The notes beneath the pieces are model-generated. The model did not search any database. It was not told the DNA's origin and was given only the letters and a program-made list of their open reading frames with translations. DNA of 64,000 nucleotides from a virus. A program made the translations under genes and the position numbers. The stretch lies in IMG/VR virus record IMGVR_UViG_3300050120_000230, positions 150,325 to 214,324 of that record, one strand, 5' to 3'. Shown in pieces: positions 1 to 56,550 of this stretch (positions within the stretch are counted from its first letter, which is position 1; each line of letters opens with the position of its first letter).

Positions 1-539
1 TTTGCGCGATAACTTATGATTTGAACATTACCCGGCACATATCCGATATTCGAATCGATTCTATCTAGTGAAGGTGCACTTTCTCGATCTTGATGCGTTG
101 GTTTGACCAAAATAGAAATGTTCAAAATTGGACATGTTTTGGGGATTGGTGGCAAATTGGTTAACGTCAAATCAAAATGCACGCCTGATTTTTTTTGCTC
201 TTTGCTTCGCAGCAGAGAGCATCTTCGCCAGCACCATCTTTGGTGTCACGATCAGTGCTGCAACTCTTTCCCGAGCACATTCACGATGGCATTCCACACA
301 ATTGTTGATCGAGGTGTATCTCACAGACACATGACCTCGTTTGCACGGAATGCCTGTGAAGAATAATTTCGACTTACTTTTCGTCGCTGCATCTCGATTT
401 GCTGGAAGAGATAGCACATCGAGATCAATGTGTTTCAGCTTCGACGGCCCGCGTTTCATATGCATATTTAGCGTGAATCTGCTTGACCAAACTTTCTAGG
501 GTGGTAAGTTGATTTTCCAGTCAATCGAGGAGAACATCT

Positions 540-7673: not shown

Positions 7674-8467
7674 TACACTACCACACTTTCACTCAGTTCG
7701 CGTGCACGCTCCCCGAGCTAAACCTAGATTGCGTGAACCTCTCAACGATAGAGCGGAAGGATCAGGCCGCTTCATTGCTTCCACGGCCCATACGATCCAA
7801 TCACCACGCAACCAAACCTTCGTGCCCATTCGGGCGAAATCTCCAACCACGCCCTCGCTCTAAGCGAACGACAACGGATCGGCGAGGTGTCATCGCTGTC
7901 TAGCCCACGATGGTCCCCTTCGGATCGCTCACGCTATATTTCAAGACGCAGCGCCGCAACTTTTTGCCCATTCAGGCGAATTGGTGGAGGGACTTCCCTC
8001 TCCAACGAAGCGGCTCGCGCGGGGCCATCTCCAAAGTCGGAGTGTGAAGTTGGGCCTACCCCCTAAGCAATGGCATTTCGGCCACTCAGGTTTATCCCAC
8101 TTTTCCAGCCTAGTCTCGGGTCTAGAAATCCCTACCTTCAGCTTCTCTCGACACTGAGGGCCAGACACTTCCTCCTGAACCCTCGCGAGGGTTAGAGAAT
8201 CTGCGCTGACACTTTTAGCTCGGAATGCTCACGCAATCCCGCCTCAGTAATTCGTGTTGCCTTCCCGAGATCAGAACGCTGGTAAACCGCCGGGCCAAAC
8301 CCTTTGGCTCTTCCAAGGACTTCTGGTTAGCTAATGCCGAACCAGCGCCCCGTTCTCAAGAACAACCTCAATCTACACCGCCCCCGAGAACGGTCAAGCA
8401 ATTTCTTTTGGTTGACCAAAAATCTTTTCGTGGGAGTATTCAATCTATAGTCAGCCGGGAGAACCAT

Positions 8468-11422: not shown

Positions 11423-11847
11423 GCAAAACACACTTTATCAACGCCCCCGACCCATGGAAAAGCCGGGGGCGCCTATTCATCAACCTCACCGGTGGCGACC
11501 GGCGAAGCCTTGGATTCAATTGTCAAAGATCGGTTAAGGTTGAAGGGAAGAAAGCGAACAAGAAAAAACCCCGGAGGCGGTGGCCCTCGGGGTTCGTGTA
11601 GCTCTGAAGATTTTGGGAAGGCTTTTAGCCGTTACTCCCACCATCACCATGCACACGACTCCCCGAGCCCGCCAACCACTTCAGTCGGAGGGTTTTCAGT
11701 CGGAGAGTGGCGAGGCGCCGGTTCATGGAAAGGTTCAGAGTCCTTGGTGTTGGGTTGCAAACGCAGCAGTTGCCACGTCGTTCAGATTTTATTTATCACC
11801 GATGTGCTGACCATCTGTCAACATTCTTTTTTGTGGTGAACCAAAAA

Positions 11848-12952: not shown

Positions 12953-13861
12953 TCACAGCATGTCAGCCGTGATTTCGAGGGGAAGAAGCTTGGCGATGTA
13001 AGCTTTCTCAAGCTCCAAGGCGACCTGTCCGTGTTCGGTCTTCAACCAACTCGCGGCGCGATGTGCGGCCGAAATGTAGTGTGACACGCCGGGGTCGGCC
13101 TTGGCCTGTTGTTCCAAAAACTCCGGGTCAAGGTGGATGCGTTTGTCGGTGACGATGTTCACGGCCACGCGGTGTAGGCGCTTATCGAAGGTAGTCGTCC
13201 GTTTGATCTTGGTGGCCACGTTTTTGTCGGTGATGTCCCTGACCATATAGGTCGGCGTCGTCAACTCGGCGTTGAAGCCATGCCCGGCGGGGCGGGCGTC
13301 TTTATCGAAGATCGTCTTCCAGACTTCGCCACGATGTTTCCATTCTGCGCTCGGAACGGAACCGGGTCGTTCGTTGTCGTGCCACCAGAAGTGTTTCACG
13401 AGGCCAAGCCGCATGAACTTGTTGATCCACTCGTTGTGTTCGCAGCGAATGATGCCGTAGACGGCGCCGTCATAGGGGATGATGGAAACTTCGAAGTCGA
13501 AATCGTAGTCGGGGTTTCGGTATCCGGTTTTCTTGATCTCGCGTTGTGAATCCATCATCTCTTGATAGACGCCGGACAGCACTCTGGTCGGCATGGGTTT
13601 TTCCCGTGCCAAGGCGTCGTCGATGTTTCTCTGACTGGTGTTCGCGTAGAGATCGAGAATCTTGGCGTGCGTGAGCGCCTTGAGAGTCTCGCGCCATTGG
13701 GCGAGCCCGCGTTCGATCTCGAATATGTTGGTGGTCGTGAACTTCACGCCCCGACCAATGTGCCAGCCCATCTGATTCCACGCCCGCTTGTGATCGCGCG
13801 ACCCTATAGGCCGTAATTTTTTCGTCAACCAGTTTGATCCGCATAAATATCGGACAGTCAT
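12953..13861 (-). CDS. hypothetical protein (302 aa)
   Basis: long ORF, non-repetitive composition. Confidence 0.5.
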   Translation of the reverse strand: MTVRYLCGSNWLTKKLRPIGSRDHKRAWNQMGWHIGRGVKFTTTNIFEIERGLAQWRETLKALTHAKILDLYANTSQRNIDDALAREKPMPTRVLSGVYQEMMDSQREIKKTGYRNPDYDFDFEVSIIPYDGAVYGIIRCEHNEWINKFMRLGLVKHFWWHDNERPGSVPSAEWKHRGEVWKTIFDKDARPAGHGFNAELTTPTYMVRDITDKNVATKIKRTTTFDKRLHRVAVNIVTDKRIHLDPEFLEQQAKADPGVSHYISAAHRAASWLKTEHGQVALELEKAYIAKLLPLEITADML

Positions 13862-17151: not shown

Positions 17152-17171
17152 AACACATCGCGAACCTTTGA

Positions 17172-18071: not shown

Positions 18072-18147
18072 TGGATAGTAGCTCAGTTGGTAGAGCTTTC
18101 GGTTGTTACCCGAATGGTCGCAGGTTCGAGCCCTGCCTATCCAGCCA
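18072..18147 (+). tRNA. tRNA-Asn (anticodon GTT)
   Basis: loop TTGTTAC, stem TTCGG/CCGAA, T-arm GCAGG-TTCGAGC-CCTGC, CCA. Confidence 0.7.
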
Positions 18148-18166
18148 AAATGACCTTCGGGTCTGA

Positions 18167-18241
18167 TTGGACGTAGCACAATGGTAGTGCAACTCCCTGT
18201 TAAGGAGAAGGTTGTAGGTTCGAGTCCTACCGTCCGAGCCA
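18167..18241 (+). tRNA. tRNA-Asn (anticodon GTT), second copy
   Basis: loop CTGTTAA, D GCAC/GTGC, T-arm GTAGG-TTCGAGT-CCTAC, CCA. Confidence 0.65.
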
Positions 18242-18331
18242 TTTCTGGGTGGGCTGCAACCCCCAACTTCATCCATCGGGTGAAGAGGTGAGACGCACAA
18301 AGCGCGTCTCTGACAAAGCGCAGCACATCAT

Positions 18332-18407
18332 GGGGCCATAGCTCAGTTGGTAGAGCGATTCCTCGGCAGGGAATAGGTCGCCGGTTCGACTCCGGCTGGC
18401 TCCACCA
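18332..18407 (+). tRNA. tRNA-Ala (anticodon GGC)
   Basis: G3-U70 identity pair (GGGGCCA/TGGCTCC), loop TCGGCAG (C at position 33), CCA. Confidence 0.7.
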
Positions 18408-18605
18408 TTAAAGAAAGCCCCGCTGTTTCCAGCGAGGCTCCCTAGACCGAATCCACCACCGCACCGAAGCGCGGACATCAAAGGTGGACATCGTCACAAG
18501 GGATGTCAAGACCCGCTGTCCAAGGCTTGGACGGCACTCGCTGTCCAAGGCTTGGACAGCACTCCGCACGGTGATGAGCCGATAAGTCGGCAGATTTTGC
18601 CCACC

Positions 18606-18640
18606 AAAAAAGGCCCCGGCGAACCGGGGCCTTGATGGCA
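18606..18640 (-). terminator. rho-independent terminator for the minus-strand gene ending at 18661
   Basis: ggccccggcgaaccggggcc hairpin followed (minus strand) by TTTTTT. Confidence 0.6.
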
Positions 18641-18660
18641 CTGCACCGAAGTGCGGATGC

Positions 18661-18858
18661 TTAGGCGGTTTCGGCGTCCGAGCGGGTCGCGTATTCGGCC
18701 TTCAGGGATTCGAGGATCGACTGCTTGGCGGTGGCGTCGGTGACCGACGTTTCGCCGAGTTCGCGTTCGACCTTGGAAATGGCGTTCTTGATGTGCGGGG
18801 TTGCCATCTTCGACACCGGGGTTTCCGTGGTGCCGGACTTCCAGACTGCTTCAGCCAC
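18661..18858 (-). CDS. small hypothetical protein (65 aa)
   Basis: GTG start with AAGGAGG 7 nt upstream; terminator immediately downstream. Confidence 0.55.
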   Translation of the reverse strand: MAEAVWKSGTTETPVSKMATPHIKNAISKVERELGETSVTDATAKQSILESLKAEYATRSDAETA

Positions 18859-18980
18859 AAGGGCCTCCTTGGTAGGTGGGTGGGAGTGCTAACCGGTTTG
18901 GTTAACGAAAACCATATATCCACCCCTGCGGCGTCATGTCAACAGCACAAAATCGTGCACTGCTCGTTGAGGGAAAACAC

Positions 18981-19054
18981 GGGGTAATAGCTCAATGGTC
19001 GAGCACCGGCTTCGCAAGTCGGGGATCAGGGTTCGATTCCCTGTTACTCCACCA
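18981..19054 (+). tRNA. tRNA-Ala (anticodon CGC)
   Basis: G3-U70 (GGGGTAA/TTACTCC), loop TTCGCAA, T-arm CAGGG-TTCGATT-CCCTG, CCA. Confidence 0.7.
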
Positions 19055-19079
19055 AACATAAATAGTTTCAACTACATAT

Positions 19080-19155
19080 GCTGTCTTAGCTCAGTTGGTA
19101 GAGCGCCGTATTGGTAATGCGGAGGTGGTGGGTTCGATCCCCGCAGTCAGCACCA
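19080..19155 (+). tRNA. tRNA-Thr (anticodon GGT)
   Basis: loop TTGGTAA, stem CCGTA/TGCGG, CCA; one acceptor mismatch. Confidence 0.65.
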
Positions 19156-19158
19156 TTT

Positions 19159-19235
19159 CAGGGTATAGCGCAGCATGGTAGCGCGTCACGTCGGGAACGT
19201 GAAGGTCGCAGGTTCAAATCCTGCTATCCTGACCA
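19159..19235 (+). tRNA. tRNA-Pro (anticodon GGG)
   Basis: C1-G72 acceptor CAGGGTA/TATCCTG, loop TCGGGAA (C33), T-arm GCAGG-TTCAAAT-CCTGC, CCA. Confidence 0.65.
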
Positions 19236-19241
19236 ATTAGG

Positions 19242-19547
19242 TCAATCCATACAGAACGGATTGGCGATGTTCGTCAGCGGCACAGTGTCCAAGATGATCG
19301 GGTTTTTGAAGAACTCGGACGTAAATTGATGCGAACCATTCGGGTTCATATATCGACGAGTTGCGGCCGTTTGGGCTCCCTTGACGGTTTTGAATACGCC
19401 GCTGAACCACATGATTTTATCAGCATCGCGTGGTGAGGTAACGCCGTACTGCCAAACGGTCATACCTTTCGGGTGTTCGATCCCTCTGGCATAGAACTTC
19501 TGCTCAATGGGAGCGTCATTCTCCGTGATGATTTCTCTCATACGCAT
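19242..19547 (-). CDS. hypothetical protein
   Basis: ORF 19242..19658 trimmed to an internal Met because its 5-prime end would overlap tRNA-Pro(TGG). Confidence 0.35.
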   Translation of the reverse strand: MRMREIITENDAPIEQKFYARGIEHPKGMTVWQYGVTSPRDADKIMWFSGVFKTVKGAQTAATRRYMNPNGSHQFTSEFFKNPIILDTVPLTNIANPFCMD

Positions 19548-19580
19548 ATGAATATTTAGGCCGCATGGCCAAACAGACAT

Positions 19581-19657
19581 CGGGGTGTAGCTCAGCTTGA
19601 TAGAGCATCCGGTTTGGGACCGGAGGGTCGGAGGTTTGAGTCCTCTCGCCCCGACCA
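19581..19657 (+). tRNA. tRNA-Pro (anticodon TGG)
   Basis: C1-G72 acceptor CGGGGTG/CGCCCCG, loop TTTGGGA, T-loop TTTGAGT, CCA. Confidence 0.7.
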
Positions 19658-19686
19658 ATTCAGAGACCTTCCCAAAGGGTCTCTAC

Positions 19687-19763
19687 GGTAATGTAGCTCA
19701 GTCAGGTAGAGCAGCGGGCTCATAACTCGCGTGTCGCTGGTTCGATCCCAGCCATTACCACCA
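19687..19763 (+). tRNA. tRNA-Met or tRNA-Ile2 (anticodon CAT)
   Basis: GGTAATG/CATTACC acceptor, loop CTCATAA, T-arm GCTGG-TTCGATC-CCAGC, CCA. Confidence 0.7.
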
Positions 19764-19764
19764 C

Positions 19765-19839
19765 GGACGATTAACTCAGCGGTAGAGTGCCTCTATGACA
19801 TGGAGGAAGCCACTGGTTCGATCCCAGTATCGTCCACCA
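19765..19839 (+). tRNA. tRNA-Val (anticodon GAC)
   Basis: one nt after the preceding tRNA; loop ATGACAT, T-arm ACTGG-TTCGATC-CCAGT, CCA. Confidence 0.7.
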
Positions 19840-19901
19840 ATTTACTTGACGAAACGCCCGTCCATGAGATCATATGTTGATCTTGCAAAGGGAGGGCATC
19901 C

Positions 19902-20177
19902 ATGACGACTGTGAAACTCTCCGAAGCGGAACACAACGCTCTCTCACTTCTGGTTCGCTCGGGCGGCTCGATCCTCACGTCGGCCATTCCCGATAAGAAC
20001 GAGAAGGACGTGTTTGACAACGTCGAGGCAGGCATCAAGGTCTACGTGAAACTTGAGACCCGTGGTCTGGTTGTCGTGACCGAGGAAGAGCCGTTCGAAC
20101 TTGAAGACGGCACCGAGTTCCAGTTCACGAACGAAGTCTACATCACCGACGAAGGTCGGCACGCTATCAACCGCTAA
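19902..20177 (+). CDS. hypothetical protein (91 aa)
   Basis: strong RBS AAGGGAGGG; acidic, protein-like composition. Confidence 0.55.
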   Translation: MTTVKLSEAEHNALSLLVRSGGSILTSAIPDKNEKDVFDNVEAGIKVYVKLETRGLVVVTEEEPFELEDGTEFQFTNEVYITDEGRHAINR

Positions 20178-20240
20178 CAGGCCACATATGGCCTATTAGG
20201 CGCCGGAAACGGTTCTAATAGGCCAACTATGGCCTCTTAT

Positions 20241-20315
20241 GCTTGGGTAGCTCAGGGGTAGAGCAGTGGGCTGAAAATCCGCGTGTCGTTGGTTCGATTC
20301 CAACTCCAAGCACCA
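20241..20315 (+). tRNA. tRNA-Phe (anticodon GAA)
   Basis: loop CTGAAAA, D GCTC-AGGGGTA-GAGC, T-arm GTTGG-TTCGATT-CCAAC, CCA. Confidence 0.75.
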
Positions 20316-20485
20316 TTTTGGTTATTTTGACCGCAAGGTAGATCATACCGCCCGGCCAAAGCAAACCGCCCCACAAAACTTGGCACAGAAATGTGCACAA
20401 GTCGAAGTGGTTGGATTTGATCTCTATGACCTGAAGAAGGCCCCAGAAGATCAATCCAATCAAAGAGTAAACAATCCATGGGCTC

Positions 20486-21616
20486 ATGCCCATATTTAGA
20501 GAGGAACGGTCCCTTGGAGTTTCACGGCTAAGCCCAGAGCGCCTTAATCGGTATCTGGCACTGCAAGATTTGACCGACGCATCGTCGGGCGAACACGCAA
20601 TCAACCTCGTGCTGGACAAGCTGGTAACGGCAATTGAGCAATGGTCGGGCCTCAAGGCAGACATCGTTCGGTCCACTCCTATCGTTTCCGTTCGGGACAA
20701 CTACGACCGGCTCTACTATGAGCCGGACGCGGTCGCACGCTCTGCGCGCTATTCCCACTACGTTGACGATGAGCACATTCTTCGCACCCACACGACGGCG
20801 GCCATTCCCGGCCTGCTGACGGAGACCACGGCCGACCGGCTGATGGTTCTACCGGGTCTTGTCTATCGCCGCGATGTGATGGATCGGATGCATGTGGGAG
20901 AACCGCACCAAGTCGATCTCTGGGTCGCTAGGCGGTCAAGGCTCCGTCGTGATGATCTGTTGAAGATGATCGGCGCGGTTCTCAACGCGATCCTGCCCGG
21001 CTGCGAATACCGCTGCAACGAGACAATCCATCCATACACAGTAAATGGCTTGGAGGTCGAGGTTCGTGTGGACGACCGGTGGATAGAGGTGCTCGAATGT
21101 GGGGAAATCCATCCGTGGCTTTTGAACGACAACGGCTTGCCTAGTCAGGAGTGGTCGGGCTTGGCGATGGGGCTGGGCCTAGACCGCCTTGTAATGCTCC
21201 TGAAGGGCATGGACGACATTCGGCTGCTTCGCAGCACGGATGCTCGTATTGCCCGCCAGATGGCTTCCCTGAGCCCCTACGAGGCTGTTTCGAACCAACC
21301 TATGACCAAGCGGGATATGTCGCTCACGGTGAGTGATCCTGACATCGAATTGATCGGAGATCGCATCCGGGTGGCGCTCGGTGATCGGGCTGACTGGTTG
21401 GAAGAGATCGTGGTCGTTTCGGCATCGAGTTGGGATGAAGTCCCGGCCGTGGCGAGGGAGCGTCTTGGGATGGCGCCTGAGCACACGAACCTGTTGCTGC
21501 GGCTCATCATGCGCTCACCGTCCGAGAGCATTCCGAAAGAGATCGCCAACGAAATCTACGACATAGTCTATGGCGAGCTTCACGAAGGATCGGCGGGGTA
21601 TCAGCGTGTATCATAA
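20486..21616 (+). CDS. pheS: phenylalanyl-tRNA synthetase alpha-subunit (PheS)-like class II aaRS catalytic core
   Basis: motif 2 VLPGLVYRRDVMDRMHVGEPHQVDLWV (cf. [27 protein letters not shown]) and motif 3 SGLAMGLGLDRLVMLLKGMDDIRLL (cf. [25 protein letters not shown]); ILRTHTTAAIPGLL matches LLRTQTSGVQIRTM; lies directly after tRNA-Phe. Confidence 0.75.
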   Translation: MPIFREERSLGVSRLSPERLNRYLALQDLTDASSGEHAINLVLDKLVTAIEQWSGLKADIVRSTPIVSVRDNYDRLYYEPDAVARSARYSHYVDDEHILRTHTTAAIPGLLTETTADRLMVLPGLVYRRDVMDRMHVGEPHQVDLWVARRSRLRRDDLLKMIGAVLNAILPGCEYRCNETIHPYTVNGLEVEVRVDDRWIEVLECGEIHPWLLNDNGLPSQEWSGLAMGLGLDRLVMLLKGMDDIRLLRSTDARIARQMASLSPYEAVSNQPMTKRDMSLTVSDPDIELIGDRIRVALGDRADWLEEIVVVSASSWDEVPAVARERLGMAPEHTNLLLRLIMRSPSESIPKEIANEIYDIVYGELHEGSAGYQRVS

Positions 21617-21766
21617 ACAAGACGGGAAGGCCCTTAATGCATCGTTTATGATGCACTACGGTCGATTTCACAGTCTAGTGCATCAGTTTTGATGCATTAC
21701 GCAATTCGCCAAAAATGACGAGTTATGAACAAAAATAGCCCTAACTCGTCAAAATTGGCGAATTAT

Positions 21767-21841
21767 GTCGATGTAGCTTAGTGGCTAAAGCATCCGGTTG
21801 AAACCCGGAGATCGGCGGTTCGAACCCGCCCATCGGCACCA
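21767..21841 (+). tRNA. tRNA-Phe (anticodon GAA), second copy
   Basis: loop TTGAAAC, stem TCCGG/CCGGA, T-arm GGCGG-TTCGAAC-CCGCC, CCA. Confidence 0.65.
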
Positions 21842-21900
21842 TTATACTTGACCAATAGTCAGACTGCGGTAGATTGAACTTAAGCAGAAGGAGTCGACCC

Positions 21901-22176
21901 ATGACTGTGCGCGGAAAGTTCAATATAACCCTCGGTGGCGCCATGACGTTCTTGGGTCGTGCGGTAATCGTCGGCGTGGTCATTGCCTCGATAGGTCTCG
22001 TGGTCCATTTGGTCTCATCCGAGATGCATCTGGAACTTCAGAACCGCGAGGCGCGCGGCGTCATGGAAGGTCAGTGCTCGCAAATGAAGTGGTCGCTGGA
22101 CACGAACGCCTACAGCAAGGACAACATGCCGATCTACAAGCACGTCTACGCTGAAATCTGCAAGGACGTGAACTAA
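21901..22176 (+). CDS. small membrane protein
   Basis: GAAGGAG RBS before ATG at 21901; one strong TM helix (GGAMTFLGRAVIVGVVIASIGLVVHLV). Confidence 0.55.
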   Translation: MTVRGKFNITLGGAMTFLGRAVIVGVVIASIGLVVHLVSSEMHLELQNREARGVMEGQCSQMKWSLDTNAYSKDNMPIYKHVYAEICKDVN

Positions 22177-22427
22177 AGCCAGAACGTCTTGAAGAGGACG
22201 GCATCGCGTTCGTCCTCGAAGCCGATCACCGGCGACGAGACATAGGGTAGGGCGCCATCCGGGTTGTCCGAAAACACCTTCGTTTGCTCTTCCCACTCGC
22301 CTTTGACGTTGACGATCAGCCATTCACGGACGTGCGGCTGAACCCGGCCGCGACGGCATCGGTTGTTTCTCTCGTCCGTTTCGAAATTGTATTGCCCAGT
22401 CTCGGGCGTCAGTCTGAGCCAGATCAT
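22173..22427 (-). CDS. paralog-family protein (...VREWLIVNVKGEWEE...FEDERDAVLFKTFWL)
   Basis: 84-aa ORF; whole length resembles the 46201..46449 member. Confidence 0.55.
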   Translation of the reverse strand: MIWLRLTPETGQYNFETDERNNRCRRGRVQPHVREWLIVNVKGEWEEQTKVFSDNPDGALPYVSSPVIGFEDERDAVLFKTFWL

Positions 22428-22768: not shown

Positions 22769-22977
22769 CTCAGCTACTATTCCTGAGAGTCACGCAACCG
22801 GTGTAGCTGGTGCGATACTGGTCGGATTATTAACGACTATCACTTCCTGTTTTGGTCGGAAGAACCATGGTTCTCAGCTATTGTTCCTGAGAGTCACGCA
22901 ACCCGTATAGTCGGTGCGATACTGGTCGGAATAGTAACAACCATCACTCCCTGTTTGGGTCGGGAGCACCAAGACCT
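22769..22977. repeat. tandem duplication of a ~104-bp intergenic unit (2 copies, about 85% identical)
   Basis: ctcagctactattcctgagagtcacgcaacc... repeated at 22769 and 22873. Confidence 0.7.
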
Positions 22978-23045
22978 TTTAATAGCCGATCTAGGTATGT
23001 AGGTCAAACAATTTCGTTGACCGAATTTCAAATCACCATGAAACT

Positions 23046-23495
23046 GTGCGGATGGAAGTTTGTCTCATTCGCCCCGACCATTTCGACGCCATGGATGACA
23101 TCCTGAATGGTAATGGGATGCCGCTCGCTCGTGCGTTCCCGCCGACCTATTTCGTGGCGCTGGATAGAGGGGAAGTCATCGGTGGTGGGGGATACGCCAA
23201 GATCAACCCAAGTACGGGCTGGCTGGCGTCTGTGGCCGTCGCCAAGCACCGCAAGCGCACCGGGGTGGGTTCGGCTGTCGTTGCCGCCAATCTACGCTAT
23301 GCGGCCGAACGTGGAATGGGGTCGATGTGGCTGGAAACGTATTTCTGGAACAGCCGGTTCTATGAGAGCCTTGGTTTCGAAGGCATCGCACCCGCCCTCG
23401 TCCCGGCTCGCATCAAGGAGTGGAGAACCAAGAAGCACTGCCGCTTCATGGCGAACACTCTATTGCCAGCGCATTTTGAAATGAAGCGCCTCTGA
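23046..23495 (+). CDS. GNAT-family N-acetyltransferase
   Basis: acetyl-CoA binding region VAKHRKRTGVGSAVVAANLRYAAERG and C-terminal YESLGFEGI. Confidence 0.6.
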   Translation: MRMEVCLIRPDHFDAMDDILNGNGMPLARAFPPTYFVALDRGEVIGGGGYAKINPSTGWLASVAVAKHRKRTGVGSAVVAANLRYAAERGMGSMWLETYFWNSRFYESLGFEGIAPALVPARIKEWRTKKHCRFMANTLLPAHFEMKRL

Positions 23496-24053
23496 TTCGT
23501 TCATGAATTTGAAGACTGCTTTGATCGGATCATCACCGCCGGGTCCGTAACGGCGATACGTCCACTTCGTATGCGGAGCATGGGCGATCAGCCAATCGCG
23601 AAGCTCCGGCGTCATGGTCCCAGTACCATTCGACAGTTCTTCGCGATCTTCGAGGATCACGACACAATCATTGTCGCCGAAGAAAGGATCAACCATGGTC
23701 ATCGGTCCTTCGAAGTAAATGTTGCGATGGGAAAAAGAGTTCACCAGCGCATACGTGTTATCTACTGCTTTATAGTGTTCGATTATGCGATGTGCAAGTT
23801 TTGAAATGTCGCTTTCATCCCAAAAACTGATCTCGACTTGCCCCGCCCTAGAAAAATCAACGTCGTAGGCTTTGCGATCCGTGTGACGTTTCAGAACATT
23901 GTCGTCGAGCCAATTGCGAACCTTGGCGTTCAAACAAAAGATGTGATGAGTTCGATCCTTATCATCGACTACCCACCGCCAATGCCCCAATTCTGCTTGA
24001 AGCTGATGTGTGAGTTCGAAGACATATCTATGTGGACGATGGCGTCGTCTCAT
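23460..24053 (-). CDS. paralog-family protein (...LRDWLIAHAPHTKWTY...NESEALHFKMRWQ)
   Basis: family module at C-terminus. Confidence 0.5.
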   Translation of the reverse strand: MRRRHRPHRYVFELTHQLQAELGHWRWVVDDKDRTHHIFCLNAKVRNWLDDNVLKRHTDRKAYDVDFSRAGQVEISFWDESDISKLAHRIIEHYKAVDNTYALVNSFSHRNIYFEGPMTMVDPFFGDNDCVVILEDREELSNGTGTMTPELRDWLIAHAPHTKWTYRRYGPGGDDPIKAVFKFMNESEALHFKMRWQ

Positions 24054-26459: not shown

Positions 26460-26497
26460 ATGGCCAGACTACACATCTCGAACTGGTTCACCAAATA

Positions 26498-26725
26498 TTA
26501 TGACCAGAACAGCTTGAAAAAGAGAGCGTCCTTTTCGAGCGCAAACATCACATCGGGTGGGGCGTCTTTGTTAGGACGAAAATACACCGGACCCATGAGA
26601 TTATCTCGACACCATGCAAGCAGTTCCGGTTTGAGGACAAACGCGTGCCCGCTGAAATATTCCACGCCTTGCTCTGGCACCACCACCGCCAGAGGATATT
26701 CGATATCGTTTTCCTTAAGAAACAT
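26498..26725 (-). CDS. paralog-family protein (...LLAWCRDNLMGPVYF...EKDALFFKLFWS)
   Basis: 75-aa ORF ending in the family module. Confidence 0.55.
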   Translation of the reverse strand: MFLKENDIEYPLAVVVPEQGVEYFSGHAFVLKPELLAWCRDNLMGPVYFRPNKDAPPDVMFALEKDALFFKLFWS

Positions 26726-27248: not shown

Positions 27249-27709
27249 GCCGGGACCAGTGCTTCAACGAGTTCACCGATGTGTCGAGCTTCATACGACG
27301 CGCACCGACACCGCGCCGCTCGCTCGCGGTCGTCCTGTTGCTCATACAATTCGACGCGAGCGCGTTGGGCGTGCATCCGTTCCTTCGCGAGATCGACGAT
27401 GATTGTCTTCAATTCGGCCGCCGTTTTGGCGCTGATCTTGGAGATCAATTCGACGATGGCGTCCGCCTCCAACGCGGCGCTCCATTCGGTCTCATAGGAG
27501 AACGTGCGGCCCTTGGCGAGGTATCGCAGGGCCTCAACCTCGCTCACGCGTTTTCGCTCGTTGGCGATGCCTAGGGCGGCCTCTTTGAGCCGTCGCATGT
27601 TCAAGGGTCGGCTGGTCGCCATCCGCGTGTTAGGGCCTCTGGTTATGCTGCCGCGTGGTGTATTGCTCGACCAGTTCGGCGACCATCGCATACAGAATGG
27701 GGTCACCAT
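27245..27709 (-). CDS. hypothetical protein
   Basis: 154-aa ORF, helical charged composition. Confidence 0.45.
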   Translation of the reverse strand: MVTPFCMRWSPNWSSNTPRGSITRGPNTRMATSRPLNMRRLKEAALGIANERKRVSEVEALRYLAKGRTFSYETEWSAALEADAIVELISKISAKTAAELKTIIVDLAKERMHAQRARVELYEQQDDRERAARCRCASYEARHIGELVEALVPA

Positions 27710-28316
27710 CCTTCAGCGCGGGCAGCAGATCGGCCTTCTCGCTCATCCACTTCCGAGCGAAGCCCGGATCATGTTCAATGATCGAGGGCGCGTTGGACAG
27801 GATGTCGGCCAGCTTGTCCGTTTTCACGTCGGCGTCTTGTTCGGCGGTGTGGACCAGATCGAGCGCCTTGCGTTCGGCACGATTGCCATCCCACGGCATA
27901 CTCACGTCGGTCAGACCAGACGTGATCCGTCGAACTTCCAGACCGAACCTGTGCCCATCCACCAAGCCGCCGAATTCTTCGATCAGGTCCAACGTGATAC
28001 CCTCGACCAGAATCAGTTTGGCTCCACTCTTCAGGAATTTCGCGGTATCTTTGACCCGAGTGCCGTGTTCGTCGGTGAAGTAGCGAGTATCTTCAACCAA
28101 ATCGTGGAACATCATCGCCACTTGCTGGGCGACAGTGATCTTCGACCCGCGTGGCAGCCATTGCAGGATCGCGACGCACTCAGCCGGGTGAACGATGTAG
28201 GGCTCGCCAGAATATTTCCGCATCTGACCCACCGCAGCGTGACCCGCCATAGCGAAGAAGTAAGCCTTCTCCACACGGTGGTCGCTCAGACTAGGGGTTT
28301 GGTTCCATTGGGTCAT
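27630..28316 (-). CDS. HD-domain phosphohydrolase
   Basis: HD motif region ...YIVHPAECVAIL...MMFHDLVEDT... Confidence 0.55.
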   Translation of the reverse strand: MTQWNQTPSLSDHRVEKAYFFAMAGHAAVGQMRKYSGEPYIVHPAECVAILQWLPRGSKITVAQQVAMMFHDLVEDTRYFTDEHGTRVKDTAKFLKSGAKLILVEGITLDLIEEFGGLVDGHRFGLEVRRITSGLTDVSMPWDGNRAERKALDLVHTAEQDADVKTDKLADILSNAPSIIEHDPGFARKWMSEKADLLPALKDGDPILYAMVAELVEQYTTRQHNQRP

Positions 28317-28346
28317 GTCCCAAATCTACCCTAAAAACGAGTTTGG

Positions 28347-28634
28347 TCAACGAAAATGGTCCCACTTCATGCGGAATAGCATCTCGGCGCCGGGGTTCGG
28401 AAATTCCAACTCGACCTTTGTCGGCCGCGTCATCCAGCCGCCTTTGTTTCCCCAGCCGTTATGCGACCGTGCTTTCTTTTCATGATAGCTAATTTTGGTG
28501 CCAGCGATATTGTTCTGCATCCATTTTGCGAACTCGGGTTCGAAATACGGATGGTTGATGCACTGCCATGTAGAAGGTGCTTGGAAAAATCTCTCATCGT
28601 AGAAATCGGAAAGGAAAAGCGTCAATGGTGCCAT
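28347..28634 (-). CDS. paralog-family protein (...FAKWMQNNIAGTKISY...GAEMLFRMKWDHFR)
   Basis: family module near C-terminus. Confidence 0.5.
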   Translation of the reverse strand: MAPLTLFLSDFYDERFFQAPSTWQCINHPYFEPEFAKWMQNNIAGTKISYHEKKARSHNGWGNKGGWMTRPTKVELEFPNPGAEMLFRMKWDHFR

Positions 28635-34425: not shown

Positions 34426-34838
34426 GCCGCCACCTTCGGGATGACCTTGGAGACGTAGACCAAGTGGTCAACGAAGAACGCTTTCTCGACGGCGCCGCCG
34501 GGGACGCGGTTGAGAATGTCCCGGCCTTCGGCTTCGGTCGTTGCGGCTTTCACCAGCGGCCAGAAATGGGCGGCGATCTCGGCCGCTGCGATGGTCTCTT
34601 CCTCACGGGCAGCGACATAGCGCGCCACGATCTTGGCTTCGGTATCCTTGGGCGGCGTGGCGGCGCGAAGCGTCGCAGTGGCCCTCACCAGATCATTGAT
34701 CTCGGACTCTCCGGCCAGCCCGGCGCGGATCATCGCGACGACGTGTTCGAGGTTCGTGACCGCGTTTTCCATGGATGAAGTCATGTTGGTCCCTCCCTCA
34801 AGTGGCGGCCAGATTCGCAGGTTTTTGCGTTTCGTCAA
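34422..34838 (-). CDS. hypothetical protein
   Basis: start preceded by GAGGGAGGG RBS and TTGACG-N17 promoter-like element on minus strand. Confidence 0.5.
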   Translation of the reverse strand: MTKRKNLRIWPPLEGGTNMTSSMENAVTNLEHVVAMIRAGLAGESEINDLVRATATLRAATPPKDTEAKIVARYVAAREEETIAAAEIAAHFWPLVKAATTEAEGRDILNRVPGGAVEKAFFVDHLVYVSKVIPKVAA

Positions 34839-34907
34839 CGAAATTCTAAGCGCGGGACGGCAGAGCCGCCCACACGATCCCCGTGATGGTGAGAACGATT
34901 ATCAACA

Positions 34908-35486
34908 TCAATAGCCCTCCAACATGCCCGAGAACTTCAGGGCTTGGCCCATGGCGGAAACGCCGTAGACATCTTCGTATTCGCGAATGCGCGCGTCGAG
35001 ATCGTCTTCCTCGGCGGCCCACTTGGAGATGTCGGGGTCAAACCGGTCGCCGTCCACTTCATCTTCCTCGTCGTCGAGGAAGTCTTCCAGCGGCGGCACG
35101 TTGTCCATGAACGCCTTCATCGTGGCGTAGGAATATTCGCGCGGGCGGACGTTGTAGCGATCCTTGTAGAGATCGCTGTAGCTGTCGGCCATCCACGGAT
35201 CGACCAGATGGCCGGGGGCCTCGGCGCCGTAGGCGGCCAGTAGGGCGGGTTGAAGAACGGTCTTGTATTCGGCGGTGCGAGCAGTTTGCTCAGCATCCGA
35301 GCACCGAAAAAAGCCTTCGGTCAGTTCGGAGATGCGGTCCACAACGATGGAAAGTTCGTTCATCTTGCCCATGAAAGTATCTCCTGTGCCGTTGGCGTTT
35401 CGCCATTGATTAGAGTTTCGCACGGATATGAATCTGGTCAACCAAAATAAATTGACTTGGAGACCTCTCCTAACGCCTTCTGACAC
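34908..35486 (-). CDS. hypothetical acidic protein
   Basis: 192-aa ORF. Confidence 0.45.
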   Translation of the reverse strand: MSEGVRRGLQVNLFWLTRFISVRNSNQWRNANGTGDTFMGKMNELSIVVDRISELTEGFFRCSDAEQTARTAEYKTVLQPALLAAYGAEAPGHLVDPWMADSYSDLYKDRYNVRPREYSYATMKAFMDNVPPLEDFLDDEEDEVDGDRFDPDISKWAAEEDDLDARIREYEDVYGVSAMGQALKFSGMLEGY

Positions 35487-45350: not shown

Positions 45351-45372
45351 CGATTTTGGTTGACCAAAATCA
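45351..45372. promoter_or_regulatory. best example of the recurrent dyad motif ATTTTGGTTGACCAAAAT (candidate operator/promoter element)
   Basis: near-perfect 18-bp dyad; related copies at about 8406, 11835, 16237, 17897, 18896, 26478, 28343, 34821, 35437, 47903, 50512, 56517. Confidence 0.4.
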
Positions 45373-45664
45373 TAATTGTGAGAAACTGATCCTTCAATCG
45401 CAGGAGGGATCGCATGGCCGTTTTCGCAGAGAAGATCGCGCGTCCCATCGGCCCGGCCGACATGGAATTCTACTATGGCGGCATTGTTTTACGGATGGCG
45501 CTGTTGCTTTCCGGCTACGACGACGCTGGATGGGTCGCTGCGAGCGTCAGGACGCGCATACGCTGGCTTAATCGTGCAGCACGGGCAACGTGCAGCCTTT
45601 TCAATGATTCGGCTGTAGCGGCTCGCCTGCCCCTTCTGGCGCGTAACCTTCAAGAGCGTTCGAA

Positions 45665-47904: not shown

Positions 47905-48003
47905 TTTTTGGTTAACGAGATTTTGACTTCAGTGCGATACCTGCCTATTGTGCGGAGATCGGGCGGTGACGCCTGAATTTCACTGAAGGAAGACAAAAAA
48001 ACT

Positions 48004-48543: not shown

Positions 48544-48570
48544 GGTTAACGCCCCATTGAAGTAGTTATG

Positions 48571-48602
48571 AGGGGCGGGGGCAAGTTCTCCCGCCCCTTT
48601 TT
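48571..48602 (+). terminator. rho-independent terminator
   Basis: aggggcggggg...cccgcccc hairpin followed by TTTTT. Confidence 0.55.
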
Positions 48603-48613
48603 CTTGACACGAC

Positions 48614-49831
48614 ATGGAACTCTTCTATGGTGTGTCGTATACAGTCTCGGAGGCTCACTTGCCAGAACCGCTCTTGTTCGGGATCATTTTGATCCCCGTC
48701 GCGATTTCGTTGTTCTGCAAGTATGCCTTGCGGTTCGAGATTTCGTGGCTCGAATTCGCCGCGCAACTGGTGATTGGTTTCTGCGTCTTCAGCCTGATTT
48801 GGGCTGTCGGTCGCTACTCGGCCGCCGGAGACACCGAAATCCTCAATGGCACGGTGCAGTCGAAGAACGCATGGCGTTTCTCCTGTCCGACCAACACCAG
48901 CAATCCGTGCCGCAACGGCTATTCCTGCCACTCGCACCAAGTCTGCTCGACCGTTGGTAGTGGCAAGGACGCCCATGAGTCGTGCCATGAAGAGCACGAT
49001 ACCTGCTACGAATACGACTGGGAGCAGAACTGGTATGTGAAGTCGAACGTGCCGACCGCTTCCGAGATCGAGATCAAGCGCGTGGACGCGCAGGGCGCCT
49101 ATATGCCGCCGCGCTACGACAAGGTTCAGGTCGGCGACCCGGTCTCCGGCACACATGCCTACAAGAACTGGGTGAAGGCTTCGGTCAACTCGCTCTTCAA
49201 GGAAGATGCGGGCAAGGACGAGACCTACAAGGCGCTGATGAAGCCCTATCCCATCGGCATCGTCGATTACTACAACATCGACCGGATCGTGACGCCCAAT
49301 TTCCCGCTCGCCAACAAGCAAGCTTGGAACTGGGAACTGTCCAAGATGCTGGGCAAGCTCGGCCCGAGCCGTCAGATGAACATGGTGGTGGTCATCGCCA
49401 ACAACGTTCCGCGCGACTACGCCTATGGCGTTCGTCGTAGCTGGCAGGGGTTCAAAAAGAACGACGCGATCATCGTGATCGGCCTGCAAAATGGCAAGGT
49501 GTCGTGGGGCGAAACGATGTCGTGGTCGAAAAACTCGATCTTCAACATCGAAATGCGTAATATGGTGACCGATCTGCAAGGGACGGACATCAATGCGGTG
49601 AACCCCGCGACGTTCTTCGCCAACGTTCAGACGATCTCCACCAAGGACTTCGTCCGCCGCCCGATGAAAGAATTCGAGTACCTCAAGGGGGACATCCCGC
49701 CGCCGGTTTGGTTGATCGTCCTCTCCGTCATTCTCGCCATCCTGTTTGGCGTGGGAACCAGCGTGCTTTTCAACAACGTCGATCTTGACGCCGCGATCTT
49801 CTCCGGCCGTCGCAACCAGAATTGGAGCTAA
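48614..49831 (+). CDS. membrane protein (N-terminal 2 TM + C-terminal TM, Cys-rich periplasmic region)
   Basis: 405-aa ORF. Confidence 0.5.
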   Translation: MELFYGVSYTVSEAHLPEPLLFGIILIPVAISLFCKYALRFEISWLEFAAQLVIGFCVFSLIWAVGRYSAAGDTEILNGTVQSKNAWRFSCPTNTSNPCRNGYSCHSHQVCSTVGSGKDAHESCHEEHDTCYEYDWEQNWYVKSNVPTASEIEIKRVDAQGAYMPPRYDKVQVGDPVSGTHAYKNWVKASVNSLFKEDAGKDETYKALMKPYPIGIVDYYNIDRIVTPNFPLANKQAWNWELSKMLGKLGPSRQMNMVVVIANNVPRDYAYGVRRSWQGFKKNDAIIVIGLQNGKVSWGETMSWSKNSIFNIEMRNMVTDLQGTDINAVNPATFFANVQTISTKDFVRRPMKEFEYLKGDIPPPVWLIVLSVILAILFGVGTSVLFNNVDLDAAIFSGRRNQNWS

Positions 49832-50476: not shown

Positions 50477-50510
50477 AATACTGGGAGAGGCGGGGCATGT
50501 CCCCGCCTTT
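50477..50510 (+). terminator. rho-independent terminator
   Basis: ggagaggcggggcatgtccccgcc hairpin followed by TTTTCTATTT. Confidence 0.5.
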
Positions 50511-50580
50511 TCTATTTGGTTGACGAGAATCACTTCTGGGGTAAACTGTAGGCATAAGGGAACAACCCGGAGGCACAACT

Positions 50581-51196: not shown

Positions 51197-51766
51197 ATGA
51201 AGGCCATTTCCAAAGCCATCAAACGCGTTGAGGTAAAGGCCACCATCGAACGCAAGTATGAGGTGGTTCTCACGAACAGCGAGAACCAGACCATTTGCGC
51301 GCTGCTGACCAATTCGCTCCGCGAGGCCCTCACCGAGGCAGCGGAGTGGGCCGACTTCTGTGGCATCGTTCTAACGCCGTATCGCGTCATGGGTAAGATC
51401 GTAGAGCCGGTCACCAAGGACACCTACAAGCAAACCACGCTCAAGACGTTCGCGCAGCTTCATGCGGAATATCGGACGAGCGGTGGCGAACTGAATTGGA
51501 ACAAGCTGATGCATTGGGAGTGGCAACGCTTCCGGGGCACCTACAAGGACAAGGAAGCCATGAAGTTGTGGCTCCTGCCGCATTTCATGGAGAGCAAGCC
51601 GCCGACGTTTGATGAGGCGGTGGCCCGTGCAGGGACCAAAGACTCCCCGGCCGTCGAATGGCTGAGCGCCAACGCCACGGGCTCGTGGATGCCTTCCAAG
51701 GGCGGCTATCGGTTCTCCGATGATCGAGATGCCGCTCTGTTCAAACTGTTTTTCGCTGGAAACTAG
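51197..51766 (+). CDS. paralog-family protein (...AVEWLSANATGSWMP...DDRDAALFKLFFAGN)
   Basis: 189-aa ORF. Confidence 0.5.
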   Translation: MKAISKAIKRVEVKATIERKYEVVLTNSENQTICALLTNSLREALTEAAEWADFCGIVLTPYRVMGKIVEPVTKDTYKQTTLKTFAQLHAEYRTSGGELNWNKLMHWEWQRFRGTYKDKEAMKLWLLPHFMESKPPTFDEAVARAGTKDSPAVEWLSANATGSWMPSKGGYRFSDDRDAALFKLFFAGN

Positions 51767-56464: not shown

Positions 56465-56550
56465 TGTTTGCTCCTAGTTGGGCCGGACGTGCTTCAACGA
56501 TCAAGATACCATTCTTCCTATTTCCGTCAACGAAAACGCTAAATAGGTAT

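What the first reader, a model, noticed from the sequence alone, without database searches (positions are those of the whole stretch)
45351..45372. Recurrent dyad-symmetric intergenic motif TTTTGGTYRACCAAAA (>=12 copies)
Near-palindromic copies occur at about 8406-8423 (TTTTGGTTGACCAAAAA), 45353-45370 (ATTTTGGTTGACCAAAAT), 35437 (GGTCAACCAAAAT), 11835 (GTGGTGAACCAAAAAT), 18896 (GGTTTGGTTAACGAAAACC), 28343, 34821, 47903, 50512, 56517, 16237, 17897 and 26478. All are in intergenic spacers, often 30-60 bp upstream of starts on one or both strands. The embedded TTGAC resembles a -35 hexamer, but the extended dyad suggests an operator for a dimeric phage or host regulator, or a phage-specific promoter class.
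Basis: seen in the sequence. Interest (0 to 1): 0.6.

Follow-up and report, generated by a model that had tools for sequence, protein, structure and literature searches.

The report
Dyad-flanked -35 promoter family, huge phage
The repeated near-palindrome is the -35 region of a family of ordinary bacterial-type promoters in an uncultivated giant soil phage; its conserved symmetric flanks hint at an extra, still unidentified, DNA-binding regulator.

Summary
TTTTSGTTGACSAAAA (S = G or C) has 12 strand-specific matches with at most 2 mismatches, against 0.14 expected. Of 17 distinct sites, 14 lie in the 20% of the window without called genes.

The window comes from an uncultivated huge phage with 31 tRNA genes. 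Its nearest cultured relatives, Atu_ph07 and Phosso, share about 37% amino-acid identity.

Copies with a TTGAC centre are promoters. Pooling the window's phage and five relatives, 32 of 45 such dyads have a [T/G]AnnnT hexamer exactly 16-17 bp after TTGACS, against about 2 expected. All 12 window copies point at a gene. Ten have a Shine-Dalgarno start 25-41 nt after the -10, and two are leaderless. The -35 block and the -10 are conserved at orthologous sites while the spacer is not.

The symmetric flanks are not a general promoter requirement, because plain TTGACA/T promoters in the same phages lack them. The flanks are conserved across relatives at 59-84% identity. A smaller set of copies with other centres (7 observed, 1 expected) has no -10 of its own. 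These sit on the transcription start or beside the -35 of plain promoters.

That pattern suggests a dimeric regulator, but it is not proven and no candidate protein was found. This is a new member of a known kind, of moderate interest.

The parts
477..510 (+). Class A promoter: ATCTGCTTGACCAAAC, 16-bp spacer, -10 TAAGTT (505-510). Gene start 540.
8406..8439 (+). Class A promoter with the perfect motif TTTTGGTTGACCAAAA, 16-bp spacer, -10 GAGTAT (8434-8439). Gene start 8468.
13801..13834 (-). Class A promoter: AACTGGTTGACGAAAA (13834 to 13819), 16-bp spacer, -10 TAGGGT (13806 to 13801). Gene start 13771. On the + strand an ATAAATA element at 13843 faces the collagen-like gene.
19840..19873 (+). 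Class A promoter with a weaker left flank: ATTTACTTGACGAAAC, 16-bp spacer, TGa-GATCAT. Gene start 19902. Orthologues at L246 18864 and L247 19616.
21842..21875 (+). Promoter with weak flanks: TTATACTTGACCAATA, 16-bp spacer, -10 TAGATT. Gene start 21901.
23011..23054 (+). Class A promoter: ATTTCGTTGACCGAAT, 17-bp spacer, -10 GAAACT (23040-23045), then 6 nt and the ATG at 23052 of a GNAT acetyltransferase. Predicted leaderless mRNA.
28314..28356 (-). Class A promoter: TTTTCGTTGACCAAAC, 16-bp spacer, -10 TAGATT (28328 to 28323), then 6 nt and the ATG at 28316 of an HD-domain (p)ppGpp-hydrolase-like gene. Predicted leaderless. The arrangement is conserved in five relatives.
34811..34844 (-). Class A promoter: ATTTCGTTGACGAAAC, 16-bp spacer, TGc-GAATCT. 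Gene start 34784. Orthologue at L246 2947.
35414..35447 (-). Class A promoter in a divergent intergenic region: TTTTGGTTGACCAGAT, 16-bp spacer, TGc-GAAACT. Gene start 35372. Orthologues in L246, L247, L248, L249 and L250.
45354..45387 (+). The reported site. Class A promoter with the perfect motif TTTTGGTTGACCAAAA (45354-45369), 16-bp spacer, TGa-GAAACT (45382-45387), Shine-Dalgarno AGGAGG, ATG at 45414. Orthologues at L090 365 and L093 7181.
50482..50547 (+). Terminator hairpin (50482-50514) directly followed by a class A promoter: ATTTGGTTGACGAGAA (50514-50529), 16-bp spacer, -10 TAAACT (50542-50547). ATG at 50581. Orthologues in L090 and L093 keep the -35 block and the -10 but not the spacer.
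56503..56536 (-). Class A promoter: TTTTCGTTGACGGAAA, 16-bp spacer, TGg-TATCTT. Gene start 56464. Orthologues at L090 11469 and L093 17707.
47906..47951 (+). Class B dyad TTTTGGTTAACGAGAT (47906-47921) with no -10 of its own. It lies 1 nt upstream of a plain promoter, TTGACT-N17-TATTGT (47923-47951), for the OMP beta-barrel gene. Dyad and promoter are conserved in L090/L091 and L093.
18896..18947 (-). Plain promoter TTGACA (18947 to 18942), 17-bp spacer, -10 ATATAT, then GG, then class B dyad TTTTCGTTAACCAAAC (18911 to 18896) covering the predicted transcription start of gene 18661-18858. The arrangement is conserved at L246 20144.
11791..11846 (-). Class B dyad TTTTGGTTCACCACAA (11846 to 11831), 19 bp upstream of TTGACA (11826 to 11821). 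This promoter, with -10 TGATAA/ATAAATA, heads the minus-strand tRNA array.
97..170 (+). Two weak copies, GTTGGTTTGACCAAAA (97-112) and AATTGGTTAACGTCAA (155-170), with no convincing -10.
26481..26496 (.). TTCAC variant AACTGGTTCACCAAAT in a 38-bp spacer of a minus-strand gene run. On the minus strand TAGTCT follows after 9 nt. Orthologue at L246 11850. Its status is uncertain.

Best explanation
The TTGAC-centred copies are the -35 regions of a family of sigma-70-type (housekeeping-sigma) promoters in an uncultivated huge phage. This phage lineage has no RNA polymerase of its own and uses the host enzyme.

The full element is wTTTsG-TTGACs-ArAw, then 12 variable bp, then often TGn or GGn, then [T/G]AnnnT. 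That gives a 16-bp (rarely 17-bp) spacer between -35 and -10. Transcription is predicted to start about 7 nt after the -10. This yields either a 19-35 nt leader with a Shine-Dalgarno site or, for the ppGpp-hydrolase-like gene and a GNAT gene, a leaderless mRNA.

Shown by computation: enrichment, intergenic location, orientation, fixed -10 spacing, and conservation at orthologous sites.

Inferred: that host RNA polymerase with a group-1 sigma reads these elements, and that the genes are early or host-takeover genes.

The symmetric flanks (TTTTsG and sAAA) are an additional conserved module specific to this phage subclade. My estimates for who reads them are about 45% a dimeric, probably phage-encoded, regulator; about 35% RNA polymerase or sigma itself; the remainder unknown. 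A regulator would sit on the -35 of these promoters. It would also sit on the start site, or the upstream edge, of some plain promoters.
For: 1. Enrichment and location. There are 12 matches with up to 2 mismatches against 0.14 expected, and 14 of 17 sites are in noncoding DNA.

2. Fixed -10 spacing. Among all TTGAC occurrences in five sequences, 22 of 26 with at least 8 of 11 flank matches have [TG]AnnnT at N16/17. Only 18 of 257 with 5 or fewer matches do (Fisher p = 4e-18). In eight sequences (about 220 kb), 27 of 45 TG-centred dyads have the hexamer at gap 12 and 5 at gap 13, against a background of about 1 per gap (p about 3e-31).

3. Orientation. All 12 window sites point at the next gene. 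Ten have 25-41 nt to a start codon with a Shine-Dalgarno site.

4. Conservation. The orthologous promoters for 45354, 50514, 56521, 28341, 34829 and 35432 are found in relatives at 59-84% protein identity. They keep the -35 block and a TAnnnT/GAnnnT hexamer, while the spacer sequence changes.

5. Extended -10. All -10s that begin with G are preceded by TGn.

6. Independent scan and terminators. The generic sigma-70 scan finds 50520 and 56530 independently. Strong terminator hairpins abut the promoters at 50482-50529 and 48570-48609.

7. Lineage context. The lineage (jumbo phage group 2.2, Atu_ph07-like) encodes sigma factors and gp33 but no RNA polymerase (PMC7824862). Its nearest cultured relatives are Phosso and Atu_ph07.

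8. Flanks as a separate module. Plain TTGACA/T promoters in the same phages and in Phosso lack the flanks. Dyads with non-TG centres are enriched, 7 against 1.0 expected, and 5 of the 7 are noncoding. They have no -10 peak of their own. They sit 2 nt after the -10 of TTGACA promoters at 18896 (conserved in L246) and at the primase gene, and just upstream of the -35 at 47906 (conserved in two relatives).
Against: - There are no transcription start data, and no host or culture is known.
- The -10 hexamers are weak by the E. coli standard (GAAACT, TAGACT), so activity may need help.
- The right flank is less conserved than the left. At some orthologous sites it reads CACTC or GATA.
- The class B set is small (about 7 good sites in 83 kb), and its positions relative to promoters vary.
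- No helix-turn-helix or sigma domain appears in the precomputed or tested Pfam hits for genes of the 83-kb region or the relatives' loci.
- Counts pooled across relatives include orthologous sites, so they are not independent.
Confidence: 0.85

Rival explanations
1. The whole 16-bp element, flanks included, is read by RNA polymerase itself. The reader could be a phage-encoded RpoD-like sigma, or a host sigma region 4 plus alpha-CTD with an extended -35 preference. No separate regulator exists. The non-TTGAC copies would be decayed or very weak promoters.
For: - The left flank is the best-conserved part and directly abuts the -35.
- Group 2 jumbo phages encode sigma factors, some close to RpoD (PMC7824862).
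- The flanks occur with TTGAC[C/G] but not with TTGAC[A/T], as expected for two promoter classes read by two sigmas.
- No transcription factor candidate was found.
Against: - Class B dyads are enriched and intergenic but show no -10 peak at any spacing.
- Two unrelated plain promoters carry a dyad at the same place, 2 nt after the -10 (18896 and 66450). That arrangement, and the 47906 arrangement, are conserved in relatives.
- The two flanks are reverse complements of each other, which a single asymmetric sigma contact does not require.
Confidence: 0.35
2. The element is an activator site of the T4 middle-promoter type. A phage factor bound at about -32 would recruit host polymerase, with or without an AsiA-like anti-sigma. 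These would then be middle rather than early promoters.
For: - The -10 hexamers are weak and often carry an extended TGn, as T4 middle promoters do (own knowledge).
- The left part, TTTTGGTTGA, matches the MotA box (a/t)(a/t)(a/t)TGCTT(t/c)A at 8 of 10 positions (own comparison).
- Class B sites lie at replication genes (gp32, primase) and at a tRNA array.
- AsiA occurs in some group 2 jumbo phages (PMC7824862).
Against: - A full TTGAC -35 sits at canonical spacing, whereas MotA promoters lack a -35.
- The matching A lies 18 nt from the -10 here, not 12 +/- 1.
- The element is symmetric, whereas the MotA box is not.
- Dyads placed on the transcription start (18896, 66450) suit repression, not activation.
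Confidence: 0.12
3. The element is purely an operator or other protein-binding repeat with no promoter function, and the TTGAC is coincidental.
For: Dyad symmetry, and multiple dispersed intergenic copies as with the phiC31 CIR or L5 stoperator sites (own knowledge).
Against: - 32 of 45 TG-centred copies have a -10-like hexamer at exactly 16-17 bp.
- All 12 window copies are co-oriented with genes.
- The -10 is conserved at orthologous sites.
Confidence: 0.04
4. The element is a hairpin-forming repeat: an RNA stem-loop, terminator or REP-like element.
For: The two perfect copies can fold into a 6-8 bp stem with a 4-nt loop, at -4.1 and -8.6 kcal/mol.
Against: - Most copies are imperfect. The G/C positions 5 and 12 do not covary at orthologous sites.
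- No T-run follows the stem.
- Real terminators in the window are GC-rich hairpins that lie upstream of the motif.
- The motif lies upstream of the predicted transcription start.
Confidence: 0.03

Closest known systems
Sigma-70-type early promoters of T4-superfamily and other lytic phages (TTGACA, 17 bp, TATAAT, with phage-specific extensions)
   Same: A TTGAC -35. A TAnnnT-type -10 at 16-17 bp. A frequent extended -10 (TGn). Dense placement in front of small genes of unknown function, often right after terminators. Use of host polymerase in a lineage without its own RNA polymerase.
   Different: The -35 is embedded in a 16-bp near-palindrome, TTTTsGTTGACsAAAA, with flanks conserved across a phage subclade. 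The sixth -35 base is C or G rather than A. The spacer is 16 bp rather than 17. The -10 is TAgAcT or GAAACT-like. The cultured relative Phosso has plain TTGACW promoters.
Dispersed phage or plasmid operators that overlap many promoters: phiC31 conserved inverted repeats (repressor c), mycobacteriophage L5 gp71 stoperators, RK2 KorA/KorB operators (own knowledge)
   Same: A short motif, symmetric in phiC31 and RK2, repeated at many promoters across the genome. It overlaps the -35, the -10 or the transcription start. That is how the class A and class B copies are placed here.
   Different: No cognate binding protein has been identified. The phage is a 400-570-kb, apparently lytic, T4-like phage rather than a temperate phage or plasmid. 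Most copies double as the -35 itself. Binding is untested.
T4 middle promoters (MotA box at -30 plus a sigma-70 -10)
   Same: A conserved upstream box plus a TAnnnT -10, often with TGn. There is partial sequence resemblance (TTTTGGTTGA against WWWTGCTTYA).
   Different: A canonical TTGAC -35 is present. The box lies 6 bp further upstream and is symmetric. No MotA or AsiA homologue was found in the sequence available.

Membership tests
Sigma-70-type (group 1 sigma) promoter | A -35 hexamer close to TTGACA | tested here: met
   TTGAC[C/G] is invariant in the 12 class A window sites and in their orthologues.
Sigma-70-type (group 1 sigma) promoter | A -10 hexamer TAnnnT (A at position 2, T at position 6), 16-18 bp downstream of the -35 | tested here: met
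   27 of 45 sites have it at spacer 16 and 5 at spacer 17, against about 1 per position as background. Counting by flank matches, 22 of 26 against 18 of 257. Position 1 is T in about 60% and G in about 40%; the G cases carry an upstream TGn.
Sigma-70-type (group 1 sigma) promoter | Lies upstream of, and is co-oriented with, a transcription unit | tested here: met
   12 of 12 are co-oriented, with 6-41 nt from the -10 to the start codon. 14 of 17 are intergenic.
Sigma-70-type (group 1 sigma) promoter | RNA polymerase holoenzyme binds and initiates about 7 nt after the -10 | not testable with these tools
   Needs 5'-end mapping or in vitro transcription.
Operator of a dimeric regulator (phiC31 CIR or KorA/KorB-like regulon) | Dyad symmetry with both half-sites conserved | tested here: met
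   The half-sites are TTTTsGT and AcsAAAA. The left flank is strongly conserved. The right flank (A, A/G, A) is moderately conserved, and is absent from plain TTGACA/T promoters.
Operator of a dimeric regulator (phiC31 CIR or KorA/KorB-like regulon) | Sites occur independently of the -35 function, at varied positions on promoters | tested here: inconclusive
   Non-TG-centred dyads number 7 against 1.0 expected, 5 of 7 are noncoding, and they have no -10 peak. Two lie at a transcription start, one next to a -35, and three arrangements are conserved in relatives. The sample is small.
Operator of a dimeric regulator (phiC31 CIR or KorA/KorB-like regulon) | A cognate DNA-binding protein, with binding demonstrated | not testable with these tools
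   No HTH, RHH or sigma Pfam hit appears among genes of the 83-kb region or the relatives' loci. Only about 15-20% of the genome was visible.
T4 MotA-dependent middle promoter | A MotA box (a/t)(a/t)(a/t)TGCTT(t/c)A centred at -30, 12 +/- 1 bp from the -10, replacing the -35 | tested here: not met
   A TTGAC -35 is present at canonical spacing. The resembling decamer ends 18 nt from the -10. The element is centred near -32.5 and is symmetric (consensus from own knowledge).
Intrinsic terminator or REP-like hairpin repeat | A stable GC-rich stem followed by a T-run, or a stem kept by compensatory change | tested here: not met
   Only the perfect copies fold, at -4 to -8.6 kcal/mol. No T-run follows. 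Positions 5 and 12 do not covary across orthologues.

The most novel reading that the evidence does not exclude
The 16-bp dyad is the operator of a phage-encoded dimeric global regulator in a clade of 400-570-kb soil phages. The regulator would control a regulon of at least about 17 promoters in the 83 kb seen here, and probably more than 100 genome-wide. It would occupy the -35 of a dedicated promoter class. It would also occupy the start site or upstream edge of plain promoters for the primase gene, gp32, a tRNA operon and an outer-membrane protein gene. That would be a KorA/KorB- or phiC31-CIR-like global circuit timing gene expression in a lytic T4-like giant phage.
Probability: 0.4. Interest if true: 0.55.

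Novelty: new member of a known kind. Interest (0 to 1): 0.35.

Why it matters
The result gives a ready-made promoter model for an uncultivated clade of very large soil phages: a 16-bp -35 module, a 16-bp spacer and a TAnnnT -10.

- The model allows operon and timing-class prediction. It separates this promoter class from plain TTGACA promoters and from a T4-late-like ATAAATA class.
- It predicts leaderless mRNAs for a phage ppGpp hydrolase and an acetyltransferase.
- If the symmetric flanks prove to be a regulator site, they would reveal a global transcription switch in huge phages and give a handle, by DNA pull-down, to find the protein.

Otherwise this is an ordinary, if unusually well-defined, phage promoter family.

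Tried and rejected
- Near-identity search of 8 kb against GenBank phages gave no match.
- An exact 39-mer around the site was searched in IMG/VR, with no match.
- An exact scan for the 16-mer in IMG/VR returned about 120 mostly single, apparently random hits and was uninformative.
- The metagenome-contig scan with the 405-aa protein added only one close relative, which was already in hand.
- The genome-contig scan found nothing.
- An iterated position-weight matrix with a low threshold drifted into noise and was abandoned for mismatch counting.
- Distant low-GC relatives (L002-L089), the Atu_ph07 locus and Phosso lack the motif, so they could not be used for footprinting.
- A possible second spacing class, with the dyad 9 nt before a -10 (26481, 3183 and their orthologues), is not supported statistically.
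- The hairpin or terminator reading was rejected.
- The MotA-box resemblance was rejected on position and on the presence of a -35.
- Pfam and PHROGs scans of genes downstream of the motif, and of the small gene behind the class B site at 18896, gave no DNA-binding candidate.
- Literature string searches for the motif found nothing relevant.
- The tandem 99-nt repeat at 22769-22971 was checked for RNA structure and Rfam matches, without result.

Full report
**Source and context**

The window has 55% G+C and is densely packed with short genes. It carries 31 tRNA genes in two arrays between 8.9 and 21.8 kb. It also encodes a PheRS-like protein, a DEAD/ResIII helicase and a collagen-repeat protein.

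It has no close match among GenBank phages. Identical proteins occur on two Logan contigs from run SRR35930614 and on a 415-kb JGI contig. The nearest cultured relatives of a conserved 405-aa protein are Sinorhizobium phage Phosso (469 kb) and Agrobacterium phage Atu_ph07 (490 kb), at 37-38% identity. The DNA therefore belongs to an uncultivated huge phage of the T4-like 'group 2.2' jumbo phages. These encode sigma factors and gp33 but no RNA polymerase (PMC7824862).

I extended the window by about 10 kb on each side, using the two contigs, to an 83.4-kb region. I also fetched syntenic loci from five relatives:
- Relative A, loci L090 and L246, 77-84% protein identity, 58-59% G+C.
- Relative B, loci L093 and L247, 65-68% identity. 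These lie on the 569,661-bp contig JAWVHG010000015.1.
- L248, L249 and L250, 59-62% identity, 49.5-52% G+C.

Yes. After orienting the copies, the consensus is TTTTSGTTGACSAAAA. It gives 2, 2 and 8 strand-specific matches at 0, 1 and 2 mismatches, against 0, 0.01 and 0.13 in shuffles. Of 17 distinct sites with up to 3 mismatches, 14 lie in the 20.5% of the window outside called genes and tRNAs (p = 8e-8). In an unbiased 8-mer comparison of noncoding against coding DNA, pieces of the motif are the top enriched words: AACCAAAA, GTCAACCA, CGTTAACC.

The other three are not:
- 16237 is a plain TTGACG without the flanks.
- 17897 is the 3' end of tRNA-Pro, beside a poor variant.
- 26478 is a TTCAC variant.

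**What the TTGAC-centred copies are**

They are promoters. I took every TTGAC in five sequences and graded it by how many of the 11 flank positions match. Of those with at least 8 matches, 22 of 26 carry a [T/G]AnnnT hexamer 16-17 bp after TTGACS. Of those with 5 or fewer matches, 18 of 257 do (Fisher p = 4e-18).

I also scanned all gaps from 0 to 30 nt after the dyad in eight sequences (about 220 kb). The 45 TG-centred dyads show a single sharp peak, with 27 at gap 12 and 5 at gap 13. The background is about one per gap (p about 3e-31).

In the window:
- All 12 sites point at the next gene (p = 2e-4).
- Eleven have a 16-bp spacer and one a 17-bp spacer.
- Ten have 25-41 nt between the -10 and a start codon preceded by a Shine-Dalgarno sequence.
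- Two have exactly 6 nt between the -10 and the ATG. These are the GNAT gene at 23052 and the HD-domain (p)ppGpp-hydrolase-like gene at 28316.

The -10 hexamers are TAGATT, TAAACT, TAAGTT, TATCTT, GAAACT (three times), GAATCT and similar. Those that begin with G are always preceded by TGn, the extended -10. The generic sigma-70 scan independently reports 50520 and 56530. It also shows strong terminator hairpins ending directly at the promoters at 50514 and 48604.

**Comparative evidence**

At the orthologous intergenic sites of relatives A and B, the -35 block and a TAnnnT hexamer are kept while the 12 bp between them diverge. For 50514 the three versions are:
- ATTTGGTTGACG...TAAACT
- ATTTTGTTGACG...TAGACT
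- ATTTGGTTGACG...TAGAAT

The same holds for 45354 and 56521 and for 34829 and 35432.

Upstream of the HD gene, all six phages keep the same layout: motif, 16-bp spacer, a -10 hexamer, then 6-7 nt, then the ATG. The -10 hexamers are TAGATT, TAGACT, TACTAT, TATTAT, TATGCT and TATGAT. No Shine-Dalgarno sequence is present. This is a conserved predicted leaderless mRNA.

The motif is absent from the more distant, lower-GC relatives, from the Atu_ph07 locus and from 41 kb of Phosso. Phosso's promoters are plain TTGACW-N16/17-TAnnnT. The promoter function follows the common phage pattern. The 16-bp form is an innovation of one subclade.

**The symmetric flanks**

I selected sites only by TTGACN-N16-[TG]AnnnT, which gave 48 hits. 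The intergenic ones with C, G or T as the sixth -35 base nearly all carry wTTTsG on the left and A-A/G-A on the right. The TTGACA/T promoters lack both flanks: 40715, 47923, 48604, 61874, 11821, 18942 and their orthologues. The flanks are therefore not a general requirement of the polymerase that reads TTGAC promoters in these phages. The two flanks appear together and are reverse complements of each other.

Dyads whose centre is not TG or CA (TTAAC, TTCAC, TAAAC) are also enriched. There are 7 with up to 2 arm mismatches against 1.0 expected, with a maximum of 5 in 200 resamplings. Five of the 7 are noncoding (p = 1e-3). They have no -10 peak at any spacing. Their positions are informative:
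- At 18896 (minus strand), and at extended coordinate 66450 in front of the primase gene, the dyad starts 2 nt after the -10 of a plain TTGACA-N17 promoter. It therefore covers the predicted transcription start. The 18896 arrangement is conserved in relative A.
- At 47906 the dyad ends 1-2 nt before the -35 of a plain promoter, in all three phages.
- At 11831 it lies 19 bp upstream of the -35 that heads a tRNA array.
- Another copy follows a terminator upstream of the gp32 gene.

Occupying the -35 or the transcription start is how repressor operators are placed. This is the main evidence for a dimeric regulator.

Several points count against that reading:
- The right flank is weaker than the left and is lost at some orthologous sites.
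- The class B set is small.
- No helix-turn-helix, ribbon-helix-helix or sigma domain is detectable in the genes of the roughly 83 kb or the relatives' loci. These cover only a fraction of each genome.

The alternative is that a phage RpoD-like sigma, or the host polymerase, reads the entire 16 bp. That remains plausible.

**Rejected readings**

A hairpin function is unlikely. Only the perfect copies fold, and weakly. The G/C positions 5 and 12 do not covary across orthologues. No T-run follows the stem.

The element is also not a T4 MotA box. A full -35 is present, the resembling decamer lies 6 bp too far upstream, and the element is symmetric.

Neither motif string appears in the searchable literature in a relevant context.

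**Verdict**

The finding is a real and well-defined cis element: the -35 module of a conserved sigma-70-type promoter family in an uncultivated clade of huge soil phages. Promoter function is supported by spacing, orientation and phylogenetic footprinting. It is not yet supported by experiment.

The dyad extension is a genuine subclade-specific feature, and who reads it is unknown. I put about 45% on a dimeric regulator and about 35% on polymerase or sigma itself.

This is a new member of a known kind, of moderate interest. The interest would rise if the regulator reading were confirmed.

Noticed in passing
window 13843, 16260, 19058, 22433, 36966, 57915 (+); 61902, 57883, 40741, 11796, 3173 (-); three more in the flanks: The heptamer ATAAATA occurs 14 times in the 83-kb extended region. 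All 14 copies are in the 15% that is noncoding (p about 3e-12), and nearly all point at a gene 0-130 nt downstream, including the collagen-like structural gene. It resembles the T4 late promoter TATAAATA and is probably the late promoter class of this phage. Three copies share ATAAATATCGG.
   Followed up: partly
window 27630-28356 (-) and 23011-23495 (+): The HD-domain (p)ppGpp-hydrolase-like gene and a GNAT acetyltransferase gene start 6 nt after the predicted -10, with no Shine-Dalgarno sequence. These are predicted leaderless mRNAs. The HD arrangement is conserved in all six related phages examined.
   Followed up: partly
window 8941-11422 (-) and 16568-21841 (+): There are 31 tRNA genes in two arrays. 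Several are 85-91 nt long. The octamer AGCACATC (often AGCACATCAT) lies directly 5' of several tRNAs (11244, 11326, 18059, 18322). It may be a shared leader or processing signal.
   Followed up: no
window 22769-22867 and 22873-22971: A tandem pair of 99-nt noncoding repeats (86% identical) lies upstream of the GNAT promoter. One related copy is present in relative A (L246). There is no Rfam match and no significant predicted fold.
   Followed up: partly
window 3208-3786, 4344-4628, 5137-5358, 8468-8938, 22173-22427, 23460-23702, 26498-26725, 51197-51766: At least eight small proteins end in a similar C-terminal tail, roughly [D/E]xxA[L/I/V]xFK[L/M]RW. This suggests a paralogous family of small proteins, possibly early proteins, of unknown function.
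   Followed up: no
window 9499-10092 (+): An ORF with an HNH-like motif (CPNCH) exactly fills the gap between two tRNA-Lys genes. It may be a homing endonuclease. Two chance-level motif matches (9553, 9758) lie inside it.
   Followed up: no
window 48570-48609 and 50482-50529: Strong GC-rich terminator hairpins with T-runs are immediately followed by a -35 hexamer, forming terminator-promoter junctions. The annotated start of the 405-aa gene at 48614 is probably too far upstream, because the promoter's -10 (48626-48631) falls inside it and the homologues are about 20 residues shorter.
   Followed up: partly
all motif copies: The central six bases of the dyad (GTTGAC, GTCAAC, GTTAAC) fit GTYRAC, the HincII-type recognition sequence (own knowledge). 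No link to restriction or modification was examined.
   Followed up: no
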